This document shows, in pieces, positions 27,001-36,000 of a stretch of 64,000 bases of DNA. The stretch's first letter is position 1. Every line of letters starts with the position of its first letter. The stretch is taken from contig JAWLHB010000003.1 in NCBI GenBank assembly GCA_041690595.1, forward strand, positions 186,001 through 250,000, written 5' to 3'. The position numbers were made by a program. The DNA is from Lentisphaeria bacterium (GTDB lineage: Bacteria > Verrucomicrobiota > Lentisphaeria > JABSQK01 > JAWLHB01).

Positions 27001-30000
27001 AAGGTCAGGTTGATGCCGTCGGGCTTCGGGAGCCTCGTCTTGAGGCGCAATCCAATATACGGCCTACTTGCCGCGGGCGCTCTGATGATCGTTGTTGGCA
27101 TCGGCATTCTGCAGGGTCAGTGGGTGTTCGACGAGGAAGTAAATGATCTCGGCGGAAGCTTTTTCCATGTCGAGGAGAATACGTTCGATCTTGGAGACGA
27201 AGTACTGGTAGAAGCCGTAGGCGATGATGCCGACGACAAGTCCGAGAGCGGTGGTGAGGAGTCCCTGCCAGATGCCTTCAGCGAGCTGTTTGGTTTCGAT
27301 GAAGGAGCCGGAAGCTTCCATGTTCTGGAAAAGGGTGATCATGCCGATGACGGTGCCCAGCAAGCCGAGGAGCGGGGCGAGATGGGCGATGGCGATCAGG
27401 GGCTTCATATTGCGCTCGAGGCGTGGGATCTCGGAGAGGCAGGTCTCTTCGACGGAACGCTCCATCTGATCGCGGCTGCGATCACAACGGGTTATGGCCG
27501 ACCGGATAACGTGCGCCACCGGCCCGGGTGTGTCATCACAGATACTGATGGCCTCCAACACATTGCCGCGCCGCAAGACATTGATCACGCCGCGGAGGAA
27601 CTCGCGAACGTCAATCTGAGCCCGATGCAGATGAAAGGCGCGCTCGAAGATGATGAAGAATGAGATGAACGCAAGCACGAAAATGATCCAGGAAACCGGC
27701 CCGCCCTGGATAAGCAGCTTCAATACAACCGACATGTCGCCCCTGCTGTTAATGGCTTCTCTGGCACCCGCCGTAAAGTGGTGAAACAGGTTGAACTATA
27801 GTATAAATGCTGTTTTCCACAATGCGACCTCTACACGGGGAAAAGACAACCGTAGTCAGAGTCTGCTCTTCAGGCTCAAGGTTGGCCTCGCTCTCCGAAG
27901 ATAGCCGTGCCGATGCGCACCAGCGTCGCGCCTTCCGCGATGGCGATGCGATAATCGCCCGACATGCCCATGGACAATTCTGGTAGGCGAACGCCAAAGT
28001 CGTCTTGCAGCCGGTCCCTCGCCTCGCGCAGACTGGCGAATATCCTGTGCAGGAGAGGCTCGGGCGCATCGAAGGGCGCCATGGTCATCAAACCTCTCAC
28101 CTCAATCCGCGGCAACTTCAGAGCCTCTTCGAGAAGCTGGTCGAGATCCTCCGGCGGAATGCCGAATTTCGATGCTTCGCCAGAGACATTGGCCTGCAGC
28201 AGAAGTGGCTGCACGATGTCGATCTCGTCGGCGGCTTCGGCCAGGCGCCCGACGAGTCTGGGCCGGTCAACACCATGGATCAAGGCGGAAATGCCGGTGG
28301 CATTACGCGTCTTGTTGCTCTGGAGGTGTCCGATCATGTGCCACTCGATATCGGCCGGGAGAGCGGAATGCTTGCGCTCGAGTTCCTGAATTCGGTTTTC
28401 GCCAAAGAGGCGTTGTCCCGCGGCATAGGCGGCTTCGACAGCCGCTTCCGGCATGGTCTTGCTGACGGCGATCAGCCTGACGCTATCAGTTGGTCGATTG
28501 GCGGCTTCCGCTGCTTCCGCGATGCTGTCGCGGATGCGCTTCAGGTTGCCTGCTATATGATCCAGAGATTCGCCCATGGATACATCTTGCCCGGTTGCAG
28601 TTTAGGGTTCGCGACCTACTTTACCTCGATATGTGCAACCTCAACCTACTCCGACACTTCTCCGATGGCAAATGATCCGCCACGCAAACCGGACGATTGG
28701 ATGACGCCCAGCGACCATGCGGCCAACGATAAGGGCTGGCGACGCCTCAGCCGCCGCGAACGTCAGCGGGAAGAGCTTATGCTCGACTGGTACGGTGAGG
28801 ATGATGGGCCGCGCGAAATTGAAGCCCATCAGGCTCCCAGCGAGCAACTGGGCCAAGTGCTGAACCGGGTCTTTCATGATCTGAACATGGACGACAAGGT
28901 CCTGCTGCGCAAGATTATCGACAATTGGCCGCAGTTGGTGGGGGCGGAGATTGCCTGCCATACGGCCCCTGAGATCATCCAGCGCGACACGCTGCTGGTG
29001 GCCATTTCCGATGCGTCGTGGCGCTTTCGCCTGCAAAGCCAACTTCGGTATCTCGGCCAGAAGCTGGCGGAGTTCACCGACGGAGAAGTAAGAAGCGTCA
29101 AACTGGTGACCGGCGGCCGTTCGGCCACGAGCCGGATATGACCCTGTTTTCCACCATGATAACTGGAGCAACCTGTGAGTCAACTTACCATCGAGTCCGC
29201 CGTCCGTGACATTCGGGATTTCCCCAAGCAGGGAATCGTCTTCAAGGACATATCACCCATCCTGCAGTCGCCGGCGCTCTTCAAGGAAGTGATCGACCAG
29301 TTGAGCGATCCTTTCATGGCGGCGCCACCGGATGTCATCGTCGCCATCGACGCCCGGGGCTTTCTCTTTGGCTCGGCCATGGCGTACCGGCTGGGCTGCG
29401 GGCTGACCATGGTTCGAAAGAAAGGCAAGCTGCCGGGCAAGACCGTCAGCACGTCGTACGATCTGGAGTATGGGTCGAATCAGGTGGAGATCCACCAGGA
29501 CGCGCTGGTGGCCGGTTCGCGGGCACTGTTGGTCGACGACGTGCTTGCCACGGGGGGCACGGCCCGAGCCGCGGCGGATCTCATCGAGATGCTTGGCGGC
29601 CAGGTGATGGGCATTGTCTTCCTGCTTGAGCTTTGCTTCCTTGACGGACGTCGCCGGCTCAACGGTTACGACATTCTCTCGCTGATCAAGGTGAGCGGCT
29701 GAGCCGCTCGCGCTACTCGCCGGTGGGCGGGGCAGGCAACTCCACGCCCTGCAGGAATTGCTGCATGCGAGGCTGACGCAGCGCCAGGTCGACCCGTCGC
29801 AGGGCCAGCTCGAGAGTCTGGTTGATAATGTCGTAGTAGTGTTCAGTATGGAAGAAGAGCTTCGCCACGTCTGCATCGACGAGGTGGGTCTGGTTGGGGT
29901 CGACTTCGGGGACGAGCACGATTTTGCCGACACTGAACTGATCGAGTTCCGGCTCGGAGTCGCCGAAGTTCAGCATCATCATCTGCTTGAGAATAATGGC

Positions 30001-33000: not shown

Positions 33001-36000
33001 GCCACTGGTGGCTTCCAGGAAACGCGGGATCAGGTACGCCATCGTGCTCTTGCCACCGCCACTGGGCCCCACCACGGCCACATGCTCGCCCGGTTCGATG
33101 GTGAAATGTACATCACGCAATACCGGGTCGCCATCCGGATCATAGGTGAAGCTGACGTTTTCGAAAGCGACACCACCACGAAAGGGGACAGGCATGGCCA
33201 CATCCGCCCGACGCCCCGTGAAGGCCAAGACGGGCTCCACCAGCAGCTCGAGCACCCTATCAACGCTGGCAGTCGTCTTGGAGAGATAGCTGGTGCCGCC
33301 CATCACCTCGACTACTGCCGGATAGAGCATGCCGACATAGCCGAAAAACATGAAGAAGGTGCCGGCGCTCATGCCATTGCGGACTTCGAGTGCGCCAAAG
33401 CCGAGGAGAAAGACAGTTCCCGCGCCAATCAACAGATCCGCGATCACCTTCTGAATGAAGTGCAGTCTCTGCGTTTCAATCTGGCTTTTGCGACTGCGAT
33501 CGATGTTGCGGTCGAAGATCTGTGTTTCGCGTTCTTCGGCCGCAAAGCCCTTGACCACCTCGATGCCGAGAAAGCGCTCGATAAGGTCACCGTAGGCACT
33601 GGCCAGATTCTCCTGGGTCTCCGACTGGCTCCGCCGCATGGAGCGTTTAAAGCGGTAATAGGTGACCAGATGAAGGGGCAGGACGATGGTACTGGCAAGG
33701 GCCAGACGCCAGTTGGTCGTGTAGAGGACCACCAGCAGTATCTGCAACATGAGGACGTTCAGCAGGAAGGTCGGAAACTTGTCTTGGATGAAGGACTGGA
33801 TCTTGAAGGTGTCGTCCATGACCCGGGACGCCACCTTGCCTGGCTGATTAGACTTGTAGTAGTTGAGGCTGAGCTGCTGGAGATGCTCGAACAATTGCCG
33901 CCGCATGCGAAAGCAGAGATCCTCGCTGACTCGCACGGAGACCATGCGGCTCGAGAAGAAGAGCAGGTTGCGGACGAGGTAAATGAAGAAGAGGGCCGGG
34001 AGAATGAGCCAGAGGAGGTTCCAGTTGCCCAGATTGGTCTCGGTGGGGAAGACTTCATCGATCATCAACTTGATGGTGAACGGCAGGGCCATGTTGGTCG
34101 CCGCCAGTACCGCCAGGAGAAGAACGACCAGGGCGAGTCGCCAGGAGTAGGGTCGCATCAGCGCGATGAGACCACCGTTGCTCCCCTTCTCGCTCTTCGG
34201 CTGTTGCTCCTCCATACCAAATCCGCCACTAGGCTTTACATACTTGCCGATCCGCTATCTTGTCATAAGACTTTGAGCCTTGAGACCCCACGCTTCGCCG
34301 TAGGTTCGCCATGACGAGCTTCTTTTCCTATCAACTTTGGCTGCATTCGAACAAGCGCAGACATGACGCGGGGACGCGGGGACGCGGGGACACGGGACGC
34401 GGGGACGCGGGGACGCGGGGACGCGGGGACGCGGGGACGCGGGGATCACGCAAATCAGGGCCCTCCCTCACAGATCTCTCGCGGCTCCGATGAGGGGCTT
34501 GTATTCCAGACGTAAAGAGCACCCGTCGGCAGATCCCGACTTACTGAAGTTACCAATTAGCTCAAGAAGACGAGCTGCAGGATATTGTGATGAGAAACGA
34601 ATGGAAAACATTAGACAAAGCTTGATAAGTAGGCCAACGTCACCTTTAGCAACAAACTGAACCATGGCAGGCAACCCGCGAACATAAACTCTTTCTAACG
34701 TTATTTTTCGGCGAATAACGATCCATTTAAGCAAGAAGCAGCATAGTTCCAAATCCCCTGTTCTCTTACTGAGAATCAGCTTTCGCCTCGGTATTAGAAA
34801 TAACGCGGCCAGAATAATTGCTAAAACGGAAATGGACAAACAAAATGAATACCATTGATCATCCATCAAGTAGCGCCTATCCAGCTTATAGGCAAGATAC
34901 CACATAAAGATGGATAGGAAAATTGACAAAAGACAACAAACGTAGTTTCTTTCTGTATAGATAGTGAATATACTTTCTCCTTCTTCCATATGCATTAAAA
35001 ACCGCTCCTTATCGACCGTCCCCGTCTTGCCCTTGCCTCAGTTCACTTGCGTAATGGCGTACACCAGAGCTGGAGTTTGGCGGCCAGCCCCAAACAGATA
35101 AACCGCATTGCCGATGAAAAGCTGGTAGAAGTCGTGTGGTGAGGGTTCAGGATCTCCAGTCAAGCCGACTTCCATCTGTGGCGGCGCTCCTTGCACGGTT
35201 TCAAACTCAATACTACCGTCAACCTGAAACAGAAAGTACATGGGGTCATGTGCGTCGTAGCTTTCGGGGCTTTCATCTTCCAAGATCCACGCTGGCCCCC
35301 CGCCAACTTGTCCTATTCTGTGTTTGGAATCGGCTCGTTCCAAGCAGATGGGGCGGAACCTGACGCGCTCTTGATATTGACGGACAAGCTGACCTTGGGC
35401 TGTCTCAAATACAACGAAGTGGAAATTCAGTTGGTAGACGTTGAGGAAATTCGCCGGAATGTCTGCACCAGTGAGAACTCCGGAAAGCATTTCCGGAATG
35501 AGGTGGTTTTTGTCTGCACAGCTCGTGCAGGAAAAAACGGCCAGTGAAAGGCCGGTCCAGACATGATCGTCGGGGAAGGCAACTTGAAGGAAGAAGGTCT
35601 GCTCAGCGCGACATAAAGCACATTTCGGAATCGCATTCCCTCTGGGCAATACAGGCTTGCCGCCAACAAAACAGGCTTCGTCCCCCGTTTGCTGCCCGTC
35701 AGTGAGTATCATTGAGGAGCCCATACTACCTCATGGATTGGCGAATGCCTGGATGACCGTTCGACCCTTGATGCGAGCTTGGCAACACGTACGAAGACTT
35801 CATCACCAGCGCTGCACAACATGCAATCTGCTGCTCAACTGACTGAACGAGCTATGGCTAGCACTGGGTGCTTGCGGGAAGATGTTTCCCCCTTCGGACT
35901 CCTTCAAGACCGCCTACCTCCGTCCGACCGCAAGGTGCAATGCGTCATCAGCAATGTCAAGCTGCTTTGCCGCGGTAGCGATTTTCTGATGTGGCGGACA

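What a model noticed while it worked through the whole genome (the two positions that open the first line are those of the whole stretch)
29713..34215. An ABC exporter fused in one reading frame to an outer-membrane secretin: a conserved ABC-secretin pair of PVC bacteria [...]
g00618 (1500 aa) is a complete MsbA-like ABC half-transporter (6-TM domain 28-297, ATPase 366-515) followed, in the same frame, by a hydrophobic helix ending in a lipobox (LATGC, Cys625), a periplasmic region, a secretin domain (1016-1188) and a conserved ~300-aa tail. The secretin half occurs in other Planctomycetota/Verrucomicrobiota either fused in the same way or as a separate lipoprotein gene directly behind the ABC gene. 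I propose an undescribed two-membrane export route in which an ABC exporter works with its own secretin, without pseudopilins, GspE/F or TolC.
Evidence so far: pfam.tsv: ABC_membrane 2e-40, ABC_tran 9e-30, Secretin 1.5e-38 on one gene; Swiss-Prot hits (MsbA/YgaD 32%) cover only res 16-574. Database search with res 560-1500: 477 hits; among the best 120 about a third are 1488-2037 aa and carry ABC_membrane+ABC_tran+Secretin, the rest are 870-1077 aa secretin-only, 39-55% identity. In 16 aligned sequences the lipobox Cys is kept in >=90% and the tail after the secretin domain is as conserved as the secretin itself. In 67 genome loci with >=2.5 kb upstream DNA, 50 have an ABC-exporter homologue ending right before the secretin on the same strand; in 20 of the 50 there is no stop codon between them (fusion), in 30 they are separate genes. 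Fusions occur [...]
(Added by a program. Inside this text positions count along the whole contig: contig position 186,001 is position 1 of the stretch shown here. "Call 12" and the like, gene names such as g00115 and contig names such as C1 are that model's own, and its searches are not shown. The text may have been shortened before it was handed on; [...] marks where a part breaks off. The agent that wrote the report below was given it as the finding of a first reader that could run no searches.)

Follow-up and report, generated by a model that had tools for sequence, protein, structure and literature searches.

The report
ABC exporter fused to lipoprotein secretin
One long gene joins an inner-membrane ATP-driven pump to an outer-membrane secretin pore of an unusual family that, in relatives, always sits beside some inner-membrane transporter rather than pilus machinery, pointing to an undescribed way of crossing both membranes.

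Summary
Window 29713-34215 (-) is one 1500-aa frame: an ABCB-type half-transporter, a hydrophilic linker, a signal-peptide-like helix ending in LATGC (Cys625), then a secretin with a 312-aa C-terminal domain.

Of 80 related genome loci, 63 have the orthologous ABC gene directly upstream: 31 fused, 32 separate. Fused forms fill most deep branches. The separate form is one clade.

The lipobox is kept in 29 of 31 fused loci. A second fused subfamily has signal-peptidase-I-like sites instead. The chain is therefore probably cut into two partner proteins.

New here:
- The tail folds confidently (pLDDT 88) but matches no solved fold.
- Clades lacking the ABC gene, and lacking any orthologue in five genomes searched, carry an MscS-type channel gene next to the secretin.
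- A distant subfamily often sits beside a TLC/HEAT transporter-like gene plus a cyclic-nucleotide-binding gene.
- GspE-type ATPases are almost never nearby.

The tail-bearing secretins thus look like an outer-membrane duct that pairs with different inner-membrane transporters. Substrate, cleavage and contact are untested.

The scan noted the same fusion in another genome (e1-2086062). Six literature searches found no description.

The parts
29713..34215 (-). Whole 1500-aa ORF (P0001) including the stop codon: precursor of the ABC exporter plus the lipoprotein secretin
33325..34134 (-). ABC transmembrane domain, residues 28-297 (six helices, ABCB / type IV exporter fold)
   Evidence: Pfam ABC_membrane 5.9e-40. 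The nearest solved half-transporters are Sav1866 (4e-95), TM287/288 and MsbA. Across 55 orthologues the TMD is about as conserved as the NBD.
32494..33120 (-). ATP-binding domain, residues 366-574, with intact catalytic motifs
   Evidence: Pfam ABC_tran 1.6e-29. The Walker A Lys, the Walker B Asp-Glu and the H-loop His are each kept in 55 of 55 orthologues. The signature motif reads LSRGE.
32404..32493 (-). Hydrophilic linker, residues 575-604. It corresponds to the C-terminal extension of the ABC protein in genomes where the two genes are separate.
   Evidence: In 32 of 32 separate loci the ABC ends in a hydrophilic extension of 42-106 aa without a membrane helix.
32341..32403 (-). Internal signal-peptide-like helix with lipobox LATGC, residues 605-625 (Cys625). 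Proposed Lgt / signal peptidase II site.
   Evidence: Sequence. The same rule (uncharged h-region followed by [AGS]C) is met in 32/32 separate, 29/31 fused and 13/17 no-ABC loci. I saw no in-frame start codon between the NBD end and the h-region. LspA and Lgt are present in the genome.
32116..32340 (-). Residues 626-700: low-confidence tether containing one conserved helix (about 651-672)
   Evidence: model m7901cbb79c05; alignment A1
31756..32115 (-). Residues 701-820: alpha+beta domain resembling the BamC N-domain / helix-grip fold (borderline match)
   Evidence: VIA-align Z 8.6, rmsd 3.1 over 95 residues to 2laf. Foldseek to BamC 9hg5_C gave E 4.4e-4. The domain is missing in the short fused subfamily L110-L114.
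31360..31746 (-). Residues 824-952: secretin N1-type ring-building domain
   Evidence: EscC 3gr5 Z 8.0, rmsd 2.0 over 68 residues. XcpQ (Z 6.6), PilQ (Z 6.6) and GspD (Z 6.5) also match.
30652..31404 (-). Residues 937-1188: N3 domain plus the secretin pore domain
   Evidence: Pfam Secretin 1016-1188, 1.1e-38. The TIGR02517 GspD profile matches 937-1189. A PDB profile search hits the N3 region of GspD and PilQ.
29716..30651 (-). Residues 1189-1500: conserved C-terminal 'tail' domain with no matching solved fold. It is the signature of this secretin family.
   Evidence: AF2 pLDDT 88.3, pTM 0.84. No PDB sequence hit at E<=1. Foldseek best E 0.18. VIA-align best Z 4.9 over 48,161 chains. A profile search found 382 cluster representatives. 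In all 37 longer ones checked by Pfam the tail lies after a Secretin domain.

Best explanation
The gene encodes a precursor of two partner proteins.

1. The ABCB-type half-transporter inserts into the inner membrane, with its ATPase in the cytoplasm.
2. The chain then re-enters the membrane through a signal-peptide-like helix. The rest (875 aa) is translocated to the periplasm.
3. Lgt lipidates Cys625 and signal peptidase II cuts before it. This releases a lipoprotein secretin and leaves the ABC protein with an extra C-terminal helix. This step is inferred.
4. The secretin assembles into an outer-membrane ring. It is built of a BamC-like domain, N1 and N3 ring domains, the pore domain and a novel 312-aa periplasmic tail.
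5. The two proteins act in one export pathway. The ABC dimer moves a still unknown substrate out of the cytoplasm or inner membrane, and the secretin lets it cross the outer membrane. No pseudopilus, GspE/F ATPase, membrane-fusion protein or TolC is involved.

The secretin belongs to a distinct tail-bearing family. Its members are found next to different inner-membrane transport proteins: an ABCB exporter, MscS-type channels with or without a cyclic-nucleotide-binding domain, or a TLC/HEAT transporter-like protein plus a cyclic-nucleotide-binding protein. The family therefore behaves like a modular outer-membrane duct.

Shown: the architecture, its conservation, the linkage, the intact ATPase motifs, and the lipobox or signal-peptidase-I-like sites. 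Inferred: cleavage, ring assembly, direction of transport, a shared pathway, and any physical contact.
For: Architecture.

Linkage:
- The orthologous ABC (48-60% identity) lies directly upstream on the same strand in 63 of 80 loci, 31 fused and 32 separate. Only 12 of the 17 remaining loci have enough upstream DNA to count.
- In an even draw of 401 genomes of the phylum, 10 carry the tail. Of the 7 informative genomes other than the window's own, 6 have the ABC: 5 fused and 1 separate.
- No other shared neighbour exists.

Age of the fusion: only 3 state changes are needed on the 81-row tree, and fused rows lie on both sides of the midpoint. They also lie in both earliest branches when the tree is rooted on the most distant member.

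Cleavage:
- The lipobox rule is met in 29/31 fused and 32/32 separate loci.
- Five fused genes of a second subfamily lack the Cys but have AxA-type sites after the helix.
- Separate ABC proteins have no such helix, 0 of 32, so the helix belongs to the secretin's signal peptide.
- LspA and Lgt are present.
- I saw no internal start codon in the window gene.

Active pump: the catalytic residues are kept in 55/55 orthologues, and the TMD is highly conserved.

Not T2SS or T4P: T2SSE lies within 10 kb in 2/80, 0/9 and 0/80 loci and nowhere in the window. The genome's other secretins on C53, C37 and C7 do sit near T2SSE genes.

Modular partner:
- An MscS-family gene lies immediately downstream (gap -53 to +70 nt) in 10 of 11 informative no-ABC loci and in 0 of 63 ABC-linked loci.
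- One clade has MscS fused to a cNMP-binding domain.
- Genome G228 has an MscS-cNMP gene immediately upstream.
- In the distant subfamily, TLC/HEAT and cNMP genes abut the secretin in 10 of 18 loci with 3.5 kb on both sides.
Against: There is no experiment and no substrate.

The secretin survives without this ABC. Five no-ABC genomes, one of them complete, have no orthologue; the best match is 27-30%. The pairing is therefore not obligatory.

The ABC has only short periplasmic loops and there is no adaptor protein. How a 6-TM exporter would hand a substrate to a wide secretin vestibule is unclear.

A 12-15-mer ring against ABC dimers gives an awkward stoichiometry for a fixed complex.

Eight of 18 well-flanked loci of the distant subfamily, and L052, show no transporter neighbour.

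The partner-swap pattern rests on few independent events, roughly 3-4 clades, and kin are not independent.

The trees are quick LG+G4 searches with long branches, including the window's own (0.86-0.91). Any rooting is provisional.

The BamC-like assignment is at the noise border (Z 8.6).
Confidence: 0.55

Rival explanations
1. The chain is not cut. One polypeptide spans the whole envelope: the ABC domain in the inner membrane is tethered through helix 7 and the flexible linker to its own secretin subunit in the outer membrane. This would hold a ring of pumps under the pore.
For: The fusion has been kept over deep divergence. I saw no internal start codon in the window gene. A roughly 75-residue low-confidence tether follows the helix.
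Against: A canonical lipobox with a positively charged n-region is kept in 29/31 fused genes. The second fused subfamily has signal-peptidase-I-like sites at the same place. One whole clade of 32 works with separate genes, and there the ABC lacks the helix. Lgt and LspA are present.
Confidence: 0.12
2. The two halves are linked only by regulation or biogenesis and do not form one conduit. The ABC would export or flip a lipid, glycolipid or small molecule that ends in the periplasm or envelope. The secretin would be a gated outer-membrane channel with its own role, for instance solute or osmotic release, and would be co-expressed with whatever inner-membrane transporter the lineage uses.
For: The ABC is of the generic lipid/drug exporter type: MsbA-related profiles are the best hits but lie far under their cut-offs, and Sav1866 is the best solved match. 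The secretin persists without it. Its alternative neighbours are MscS channels, which release small solutes. A paper's discussion cites a report that a Myxococcus secretin paralogue (Om031) has a role in osmoregulation (PMC12475490, passages read). I could not read the original report.
Against: A fusion kept across most deep branches, and adjacency kept through rearrangements (MscS downstream in two clades, upstream in G228), argue for more than loose co-regulation. A secretin pore is far wider than small solutes require.
Confidence: 0.2
3. The pair works inward. The secretin admits a large hydrophilic molecule (polysaccharide, peptide, nucleic acid or nucleotide) into the periplasm, and the exporter-fold ABC imports it. 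A few type IV ABC transporters are known to import (recalled: YbtPQ, IrtAB, Rv1819c).
For: The DNA-uptake porin HofQ is among the weaker profile hits (4.7e-21, under its cut-off). The distant subfamily sits beside TLC-type proteins, a family annotated as nucleotide transporters. Whole-polymer uptake into the periplasm by Planctomycetes is recalled from PMC5394234, of which I saw only the search listing and abstract start.
Against: Nothing in the sequence indicates import. No binding protein is encoded nearby. The best profile matches are exporters. MscS partners are efflux valves.
Confidence: 0.1
4. The fusion is an artefact: an assembly or frameshift error, or a decaying pseudogene.
For: The genome is a 99-contig assembly. 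One relative (L030) has a frameshift inside its ABC part.
Against: The frame of 1500 codons is open. 31 other genomes have the same fusion, as do 5 more of a second subfamily. All catalytic motifs are intact. The nearest relatives L033 and L035 are also fused.
Confidence: 0.02

Closest known systems
Type II secretion secretin GspD, including the lipoprotein 'liposecretin' HxcQ of Pseudomonas aeruginosa
   Same: Shares the secretin pore domain with an N3 domain and an N1-type ring domain. Like HxcQ it has a lipobox, so it may pilot itself to the outer membrane. HxcQ is named as the exception to the need for a pilotin in PMC12475490 (passage read). That it is a lipoprotein is recalled.
   Different: It scores far below the GspD cut-off (164.6 against 351 bits). 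There is no classical N0 domain or Secretin_N Pfam hit, and a BamC-like domain stands there instead. In place of a short S-domain it has a 312-aa tail with no matching solved fold. There are no GspE/F or pseudopilin genes nearby. Its signal peptide lies inside an ABC-exporter gene.
Type I secretion (HlyB-HlyD-TolC) and MacAB-TolC tripartite pumps
   Same: An ABC transporter in the inner membrane is genetically tied to an outer-membrane channel. The logic is a one-step or two-step route across both membranes.
   Different: The outer component is a secretin rather than a TolC-type trimer. No membrane-fusion protein is encoded in the window. The ABC scores 279 against 725 bits on the HlyB profile, and no peptidase domain was found. 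Only 6-7 of 80 loci have an unrelated MacAB/OEP/HlyD operon upstream.
Filamentous-phage export pair pI (inner-membrane ATPase) and pIV (secretin)
   Same: It is a minimal system in which one inner-membrane ATPase works with one secretin and no pilus machinery. This is the closest functional precedent (recalled from knowledge, not tested here).
   Different: pI is a Zot-type P-loop protein with one membrane helix, not an ABC exporter. The phage system extrudes a filament. There are no phage genes around this locus.
Secretin 'slime nozzles' of cyanobacteria and myxobacteria (PMC12475490)
   Same: They show that secretins can serve the export of non-protein polymers (title, abstract start and passages read).
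   Different: Those are ordinary GspD/PilQ secretins. The passages I read (search terms 'ABC transporter', 'secretin domain', 'fused') describe no ABC fusion; I did not search that paper for a C-terminal domain.

Membership tests
Secretin superfamily (Pfam PF00263) | C-terminal secretin pore domain scoring over the Pfam gathering threshold | tested here: met
   132.9 bits against a cut-off of 27.5, residues 1016-1188
Secretin superfamily (Pfam PF00263) | Periplasmic ring-building N-domains before the pore domain | tested here: met
   The N3 region is hit by the GspD and PilQ PDB profiles. The N1-type domain matches EscC with Z 8.0 and rmsd 2.0 over 68 residues.
Secretin superfamily (Pfam PF00263) | Forms a 12-15-mer gated ring in the outer membrane | not testable with these tools
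   Needs cryo-EM or biochemistry
T2SS secretin GspD (TIGR02517) | Equivalog profile score over the cut-off | tested here: not met
   164.6 bits against 351.35. Only profile positions 324-592 are matched.
T2SS secretin GspD (TIGR02517) | Encoded with GspE/F ATPase-platform and pseudopilin genes | tested here: not met
   No T2SSE match in the 64-kb window, and matches within 10 kb in only 2 of 80 related loci. None of the window neighbours belongs to T2SS families.
Type IV pilus secretin PilQ (TIGR02515) | Profile score over the cut-off, with N-terminal AMIN domains | tested here: not met
   109.3 bits against 284.35. No AMIN hit in P0001. AMIN occurs only in two distant tail-bearing members.
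Liposecretin (HxcQ-like, self-piloting) | Lipobox Cys at the end of the signal peptide | tested here: met
   LATGC ending at Cys625. The rule is conserved in 74 of 80 related loci.
Liposecretin (HxcQ-like, self-piloting) | Acylated in vivo and independent of a pilotin | not testable with these tools
   Needs lipid labelling and a globomycin test
ABCB / type IV ABC exporter | 6-TM ABC_membrane domain plus an ABC_tran domain with Walker A, Walker B, signature and H-loop motifs | tested here: met
MsbA lipid A flippase (TIGR02203) | Equivalog profile score over the cut-off | tested here: not met
   350.1 bits against 602
Type I secretion ABC (HlyB, TIGR01846) | Profile score over the cut-off, with adjacent membrane-fusion protein and TolC-type genes | tested here: not met
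   279.5 bits against 725.55. No HlyD or OEP gene among the window neighbours.

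The most novel reading that the evidence does not exclude
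The tail-bearing secretins are a separate class of outer-membrane duct, a secretin-based counterpart of TolC. They dock onto interchangeable inner-membrane transporters: an ABCB pump, cyclic-nucleotide-gated MscS-type channels, or TLC/HEAT carriers. Together these would form a new family of two-component trans-envelope transport systems. The ABC-secretin fusion would be its most explicit form, and the novel 312-aa tail its defining, perhaps regulatory or wall-anchoring, module.
Probability: 0.3. Interest if true: 0.9.

Novelty: new variant of a known kind. Interest (0 to 1): 0.75.

Why it matters
Every described secretin works with a pilus-like or needle-like machine or with a phage ATPase. 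Every described ABC-driven route across two membranes uses a TolC-type channel and an adaptor protein.

A conserved ABC exporter fused to its own secretin would be a new architecture for crossing the Gram-negative envelope. This holds all the more if it belongs to a wider family in which the same secretin type pairs with other inner-membrane transporters.

It also offers:
- a natural case of an internal lipoprotein signal peptide that splits one gene product between two membranes;
- a confident 312-aa domain with no matching solved fold;
- a testable handle on export in Phycisphaerae-type planctomycetes, which are poorly studied.

The fusion itself acts as a 'Rosetta stone', telling which two proteins to test together.

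Tried and rejected
- Complex prediction with two copies of the ABC membrane domain (1-335) plus secretin residues 626-830 gave no answer (score 0.05, mark 0.32). This is no evidence either way.
- Tail fold searches found nothing usable. Foldseek against the PDB gave best E 0.18. VIA-align over 48,161 chains gave best Z 4.9, with scattered LysM-like and GGDEF-like pieces at noise level. The PDB sequence profile gave 0 hits. The protein atlas gave only secretin clusters under 0.9.
- Sequencing runs: four sediment-metagenome DNA runs of one study hold 9-12% of the sampled words, and no RNA holder is listed. I did not lay reads.
- The phylum search centred on the 'Verrucomicrobiota'-labelled genome returned the same hits as the first draw, apart from the centre genome. 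It added no new genomes.
- The upstream ORFs 34468-34995 and 35038-35724 (-) have no Pfam family even at E<=1. They lie in a low-GC stretch. I treat them as unrelated.
- The six 'separate' loci with a single in-frame TAG between the genes were considered as readthrough sites. I rejected this because a ribosome-binding site and an ATG follow within about 30 nt and the six are related.
- Lineage-specific neighbours were rejected as general partners, each being in 17 or fewer of 81 loci. They are a dockerin/P-domain protein, a multi-glycosyltransferase, transglutaminase-like proteins and a MacAB-type operon.
- Literature searches found no description of an ABC-secretin fusion or of the tail domain. 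Subscription journals and the Om031 paper are not in the library.
- One search failed because a stop codon lay in one reference. I corrected the coordinates and repeated the call.

Full report

Yes. Window 29713-34215 on the minus strand is one open frame of 1500 codons. Pfam finds three domains over their cut-offs:
- ABC_membrane, residues 28-297, 5.9e-40;
- ABC_tran, residues 366-515, 1.6e-29;
- Secretin, residues 1016-1188, 1.1e-38.

The ABC half is an ABCB-type (type IV) half-transporter. MsbA-related profiles are the best NCBIfam hits but lie far under their cut-offs (351 against 780 bits and 350 against 602). The best solved half-transporter is Sav1866, followed by TM287/288, MsbA and BmrA.

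After the ATPase domain comes a hydrophilic stretch. It is followed by an uncharged hydrophobic helix ending in LATGC, with the Cys at residue 625.

I saw no in-frame ATG, GTG or TTG between the end of the ATPase domain and the middle of that helix. In this genome the secretin can therefore only be made as part of the fused chain (my reading of the protein and the DNA).

**2. Neighbourhood and genome**

The flanking genes are housekeeping or unrelated. Downstream there are a convergent phosphoribosyltransferase gene, DciA, a YggS-like gene, ExbB/ExbD and GuaA. Upstream there are Band-7, a P-type ATPase, HAD and RsmB.

The two small ORFs just upstream on the same strand lie in a low-GC stretch (0.47-0.51). 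They have no family even at E<=1.

The 8.1-Mb genome has six secretin-domain matches and 20 T2SSE-type ATPase matches. The secretins on contigs C53, C37 and C7 lie within about 1-10 kb of such ATPases. This one lies about 175 kb from the nearest ATPase match.

The tail and the N-region are single-copy in the genome. LspA and Lgt are present, and the LspA gene happens to lie in this window.

**3. Relatives and linkage**

A search with residues 600-1500 found 378 proteins at E<=1e-3. By my count, 32 of the best 120 carry ABC domains and are 1265-2037 aa long. The rest are secretin-only proteins of 872-1077 aa.

In the species-representative genome collection 288 relatives were found, of which the best 80 loci were kept. 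I ran tblastn with the ABC half and walked the reading frames. The results:
- 31 loci are fused.
- 32 have a separate ABC gene ending right before, or overlapping the start of, the secretin frame.
- 17 have no ABC. Five of these have under 1.1 kb upstream, which leaves 12 informative.
- The linked ABC genes are 48-60% identical to the window's. Paralogues elsewhere are 25-32%. L075 is fused to a more divergent ABC (29%).

Clustering of all flanking ORFs shows no other family in more than 17 of 81 loci. Those that recur are lineage synteny.

I also searched an even draw of 401 genomes of the phylum, for a sample not chosen by similarity. The tail occurs in 10 of them, the window's genome included, so the system is sporadic. 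Of the nine others:
- five are fused and one is separate;
- one has no ABC;
- two sit at contig ends.

**4. History of the fusion**

On a tree of 81 secretin halves the three states need only 3 changes. The 32 separate loci form one clade with SH-aLRT 100. The no-ABC loci form two clades. Fused rows occupy all other deep branches on both sides of the midpoint.

With nine more sequences added and the root placed on the most distant member, fused rows sit in both earliest branches.

So the fusion is old and was split once in this sample. It did not arise many times. These are quick LG+G4 trees with several long branches, the window's own included, so the polarity is provisional.

**5. Is the chain cut?**

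Four lines of sequence evidence say probably yes.
- A lipobox rule (ten uncharged residues, a hydrophobic h-region, then [AGS]C) is met in 32/32 separate, 29/31 fused and 13/17 no-ABC loci. Basic residues usually stand before the helix.
- The five fused genes of the second subfamily (L110-L114) lack the Cys. Right after the helix they have AxA-type sites such as ARA|G, LSA|Q and VAA|Q, which look like signal-peptidase-I sites.
- In all 32 separate loci the ABC protein ends in a hydrophilic, often acidic extension of 42-106 aa with no membrane helix. The helix therefore belongs to the secretin's signal peptide and is not a seventh helix of the pump.
- The enzymes needed are encoded in the genome.

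Cleavage itself is untested.

**6. Anatomy of the secretin half**

The N-region model has pLDDT 80.2. It shows, in order:
- a tether with one helix;
- an alpha+beta domain (residues 701-820) that resembles the BamC N-domain or helix-grip fold, with Z 8.6 and rmsd 3.1 over 95 residues and Foldseek E 4.4e-4. This is at the border of what the tool calls meaningful;
- a domain (824-952) that matches secretin N1-type ring domains: EscC Z 8.0 with rmsd 2.0 over 68 residues, plus XcpQ, PilQ and GspD;
- an N3 region, found by profile.

All secretin subfamily profiles (GspD, MshL, PilQ, SctC, HofQ) score far below their cut-offs.

The 312-aa tail folds with pLDDT 88.3 and pTM 0.84. It has no PDB sequence relative and no Foldseek match. 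No VIA-align match exceeds Z 4.9 among 48,161 chains.

A profile of the tail finds 382 cluster representatives among 1.84 billion proteins. All 37 longer ones that I put through Pfam have a Secretin domain, and by the match coordinates the tail lies after it. Six hits of about 300 aa, which had no Pfam family, may be fragments.

One member carries a SPOR domain after the tail. That would fit a periplasmic, wall-facing position for the tail, which is inference.

**7. The pump looks active and specific**

Across 55 orthologues the Walker A Lys, the Walker B Asp-Glu and the H-loop His are invariant. The signature motif reads LSRGE. The membrane domain is about as conserved as the ATPase domain. 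I read that as a sign of a defined substrate or partner.

**8. What replaces the ABC where it is missing**

In five no-ABC genomes, one of them a complete chromosome, the best match to the ABC half is 27-30% identical. No orthologue is present.

In 10 of the 11 informative no-ABC loci with downstream DNA, an MscS-family gene follows the secretin on the same strand, with a gap of -53 to +70 nt. None of the 63 ABC-linked loci has one. The details differ by clade:
- One clade has a 353-371-aa MscS.
- The other has a protein of about 500 aa, MscS fused to a cyclic-nucleotide-binding domain.
- The single no-ABC genome in the phylum draw has an MscS-cNMP gene immediately upstream instead.

I then fetched 80 metagenome loci of a distant tail-bearing subfamily.
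- None has an ABC orthologue, an MscS gene or a T2SSE gene nearby.
- 34 of the 80 carry, on the same strand, an ORF of the recurrent neighbour family. In full this is a protein of about 930 aa with a TLC (ATP/ADP-transporter-like) membrane domain and HEAT repeats, plus a 145-aa cyclic-nucleotide-binding protein. Sometimes the two are fused into one gene downstream of the secretin.
- Of 18 loci with at least 3.5 kb on both sides, 10 have this pair and 8 do not.
- These secretins have ordinary signal peptides. The lipobox rule is met in 4 of 71.

One database protein, P0229, even has a cyclic-nucleotide-binding domain, a signal-like helix and the secretin in one frame.

These are few independent events, and relatives are not independent of each other. 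Still, the direction is consistent. This secretin type keeps company with inner-membrane transport proteins of different kinds and not with pilus-type machinery.

**9. Most likely mechanism**

See Best explanation. In short, the gene gives a precursor that is split at the internal lipoprotein signal peptide into an ABCB exporter and a lipoprotein secretin. The two act in one route out of the cell.

My confidence by part:
- about 0.75 that the two halves act in one pathway;
- about 0.7 that the chain is cut;
- about 0.35-0.4 that they form a physical conduit.

The substrate is unknown. The exporter type suggests an amphipathic molecule, lipid-linked glycan, glucan or peptide. The wide pore suggests something bulky.

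A complex prediction between the pump's membrane domain and the first 205 residues of the mature secretin gave no answer.

**10. Comparison and novelty**

The parts belong to known superfamilies, but every subfamily membership test I could run failed: GspD, PilQ, SctC, MsbA and HlyB (see Membership tests).

The nearest precedents are the following:
- liposecretins such as HxcQ;
- type I and MacAB-TolC pumps;
- the phage pI/pIV pair;
- the recent finding that secretins are needed for slime export (PMC12475490; title, abstract start and passages read).

Six full-text searches found no description of an ABC-secretin fusion or of the tail. Subscription journals are not covered.

Public annotations call these proteins 'ATP-binding cassette domain-containing protein' or 'GspD'.

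This scan had already noted the same kind of fusion in another genome and reached the cleavable-precursor reading (e1-2086062). My tests agree with it. They add the phylogeny, the signal-peptidase-I-type subfamily, the domain anatomy and the alternative partners.

**11. Verdict**

The feature is real and conserved, and undescribed as far as I could search. I rate it a new variant of known kinds of system. There is a fair chance (about 0.3) that it marks a categorically new family of secretin-based two-component envelope transporters. Interest 0.75.

Noticed in passing
window 34300-35800: A low-GC stretch (0.47-0.51 against about 0.60 around it) holds two minus-strand ORFs without any family. 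P0263 is 175 aa with hydrophobic stretches. P0264 is 228 aa with paired Cys motifs. It may be a small foreign insert just upstream of the fusion gene.
   Followed up: partly
window 57316-57726 (-): The genome's only signal peptidase II (LspA) match lies in this same window, about 23 kb from the gene whose lipobox it would cut (G000:C3:243316-243726).
   Followed up: no
window 14988-16643 (-): A second ABCB-type exporter paralogue (29% identity to the fused ABC half) lies about 13 kb away on the same strand.
   Followed up: no
window 26601-27735 (-): An ExbB/ExbD (MotA/TolQ-type proton channel) gene pair, with a 290-aa ORF without a family just downstream of it (25714-26586).
   Followed up: no
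L039, L041, L042, L045, L047, L086 (ABC stop codon): In six related 'separate' loci the ABC and secretin frames are the same frame, interrupted by a single TAG. A GGAG-like site and an ATG follow about 30 nt later. This looks like the scar of the fission.
   Followed up: partly
L058-L070, L078, L081, L082, L085 (junction): The marine fused clade keeps a Met in a conserved 'MKHP' motif just before the internal signal peptide. In these genes the secretin might also be translated on its own from an internal start.
   Followed up: no
P0229 (database protein, 1050 aa): One frame holds a cyclic-nucleotide-binding domain, a signal-like helix (VAA|Q) and a tail-bearing secretin. It parallels the ABC fusion. 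It may be the end of an MscS-cNMP-secretin fusion or of a cNMP-protein fusion.
   Followed up: partly
L058, L061, L062, L064, L069, L082 (upstream 0.7-6.3 kb): An OEP / HlyD / ABC ATPase / two FtsX-MacB permease operon lies directly upstream of the fused gene on the same strand in one clade.
   Followed up: partly
L030 8008-9727: The ABC part of this relative is split by a frameshift (two tblastn pieces in different frames). Its database protein is 1265 aa and lacks ABC_membrane.
   Followed up: no
L022, L029, L036, L074 and other record titles: Submitters' taxon labels disagree with the gene tree and with the collection's phylum grouping. A 'Vicinamibacteraceae' MAG sits 0.04 from a Phycisphaerae MAG. 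The 'Verrucomicrobiota' complete genome shares the window's phylum group.
   Followed up: partly
tail residues 1366 and 1456-1461 of P0001 (window about 29833-30119): The tail has an invariant Cys in a 'DCPDRDxW' motif at the start of a helix, and a conserved 'FHTExYY' motif. Whether these form an active or binding site is unknown.
   Followed up: no
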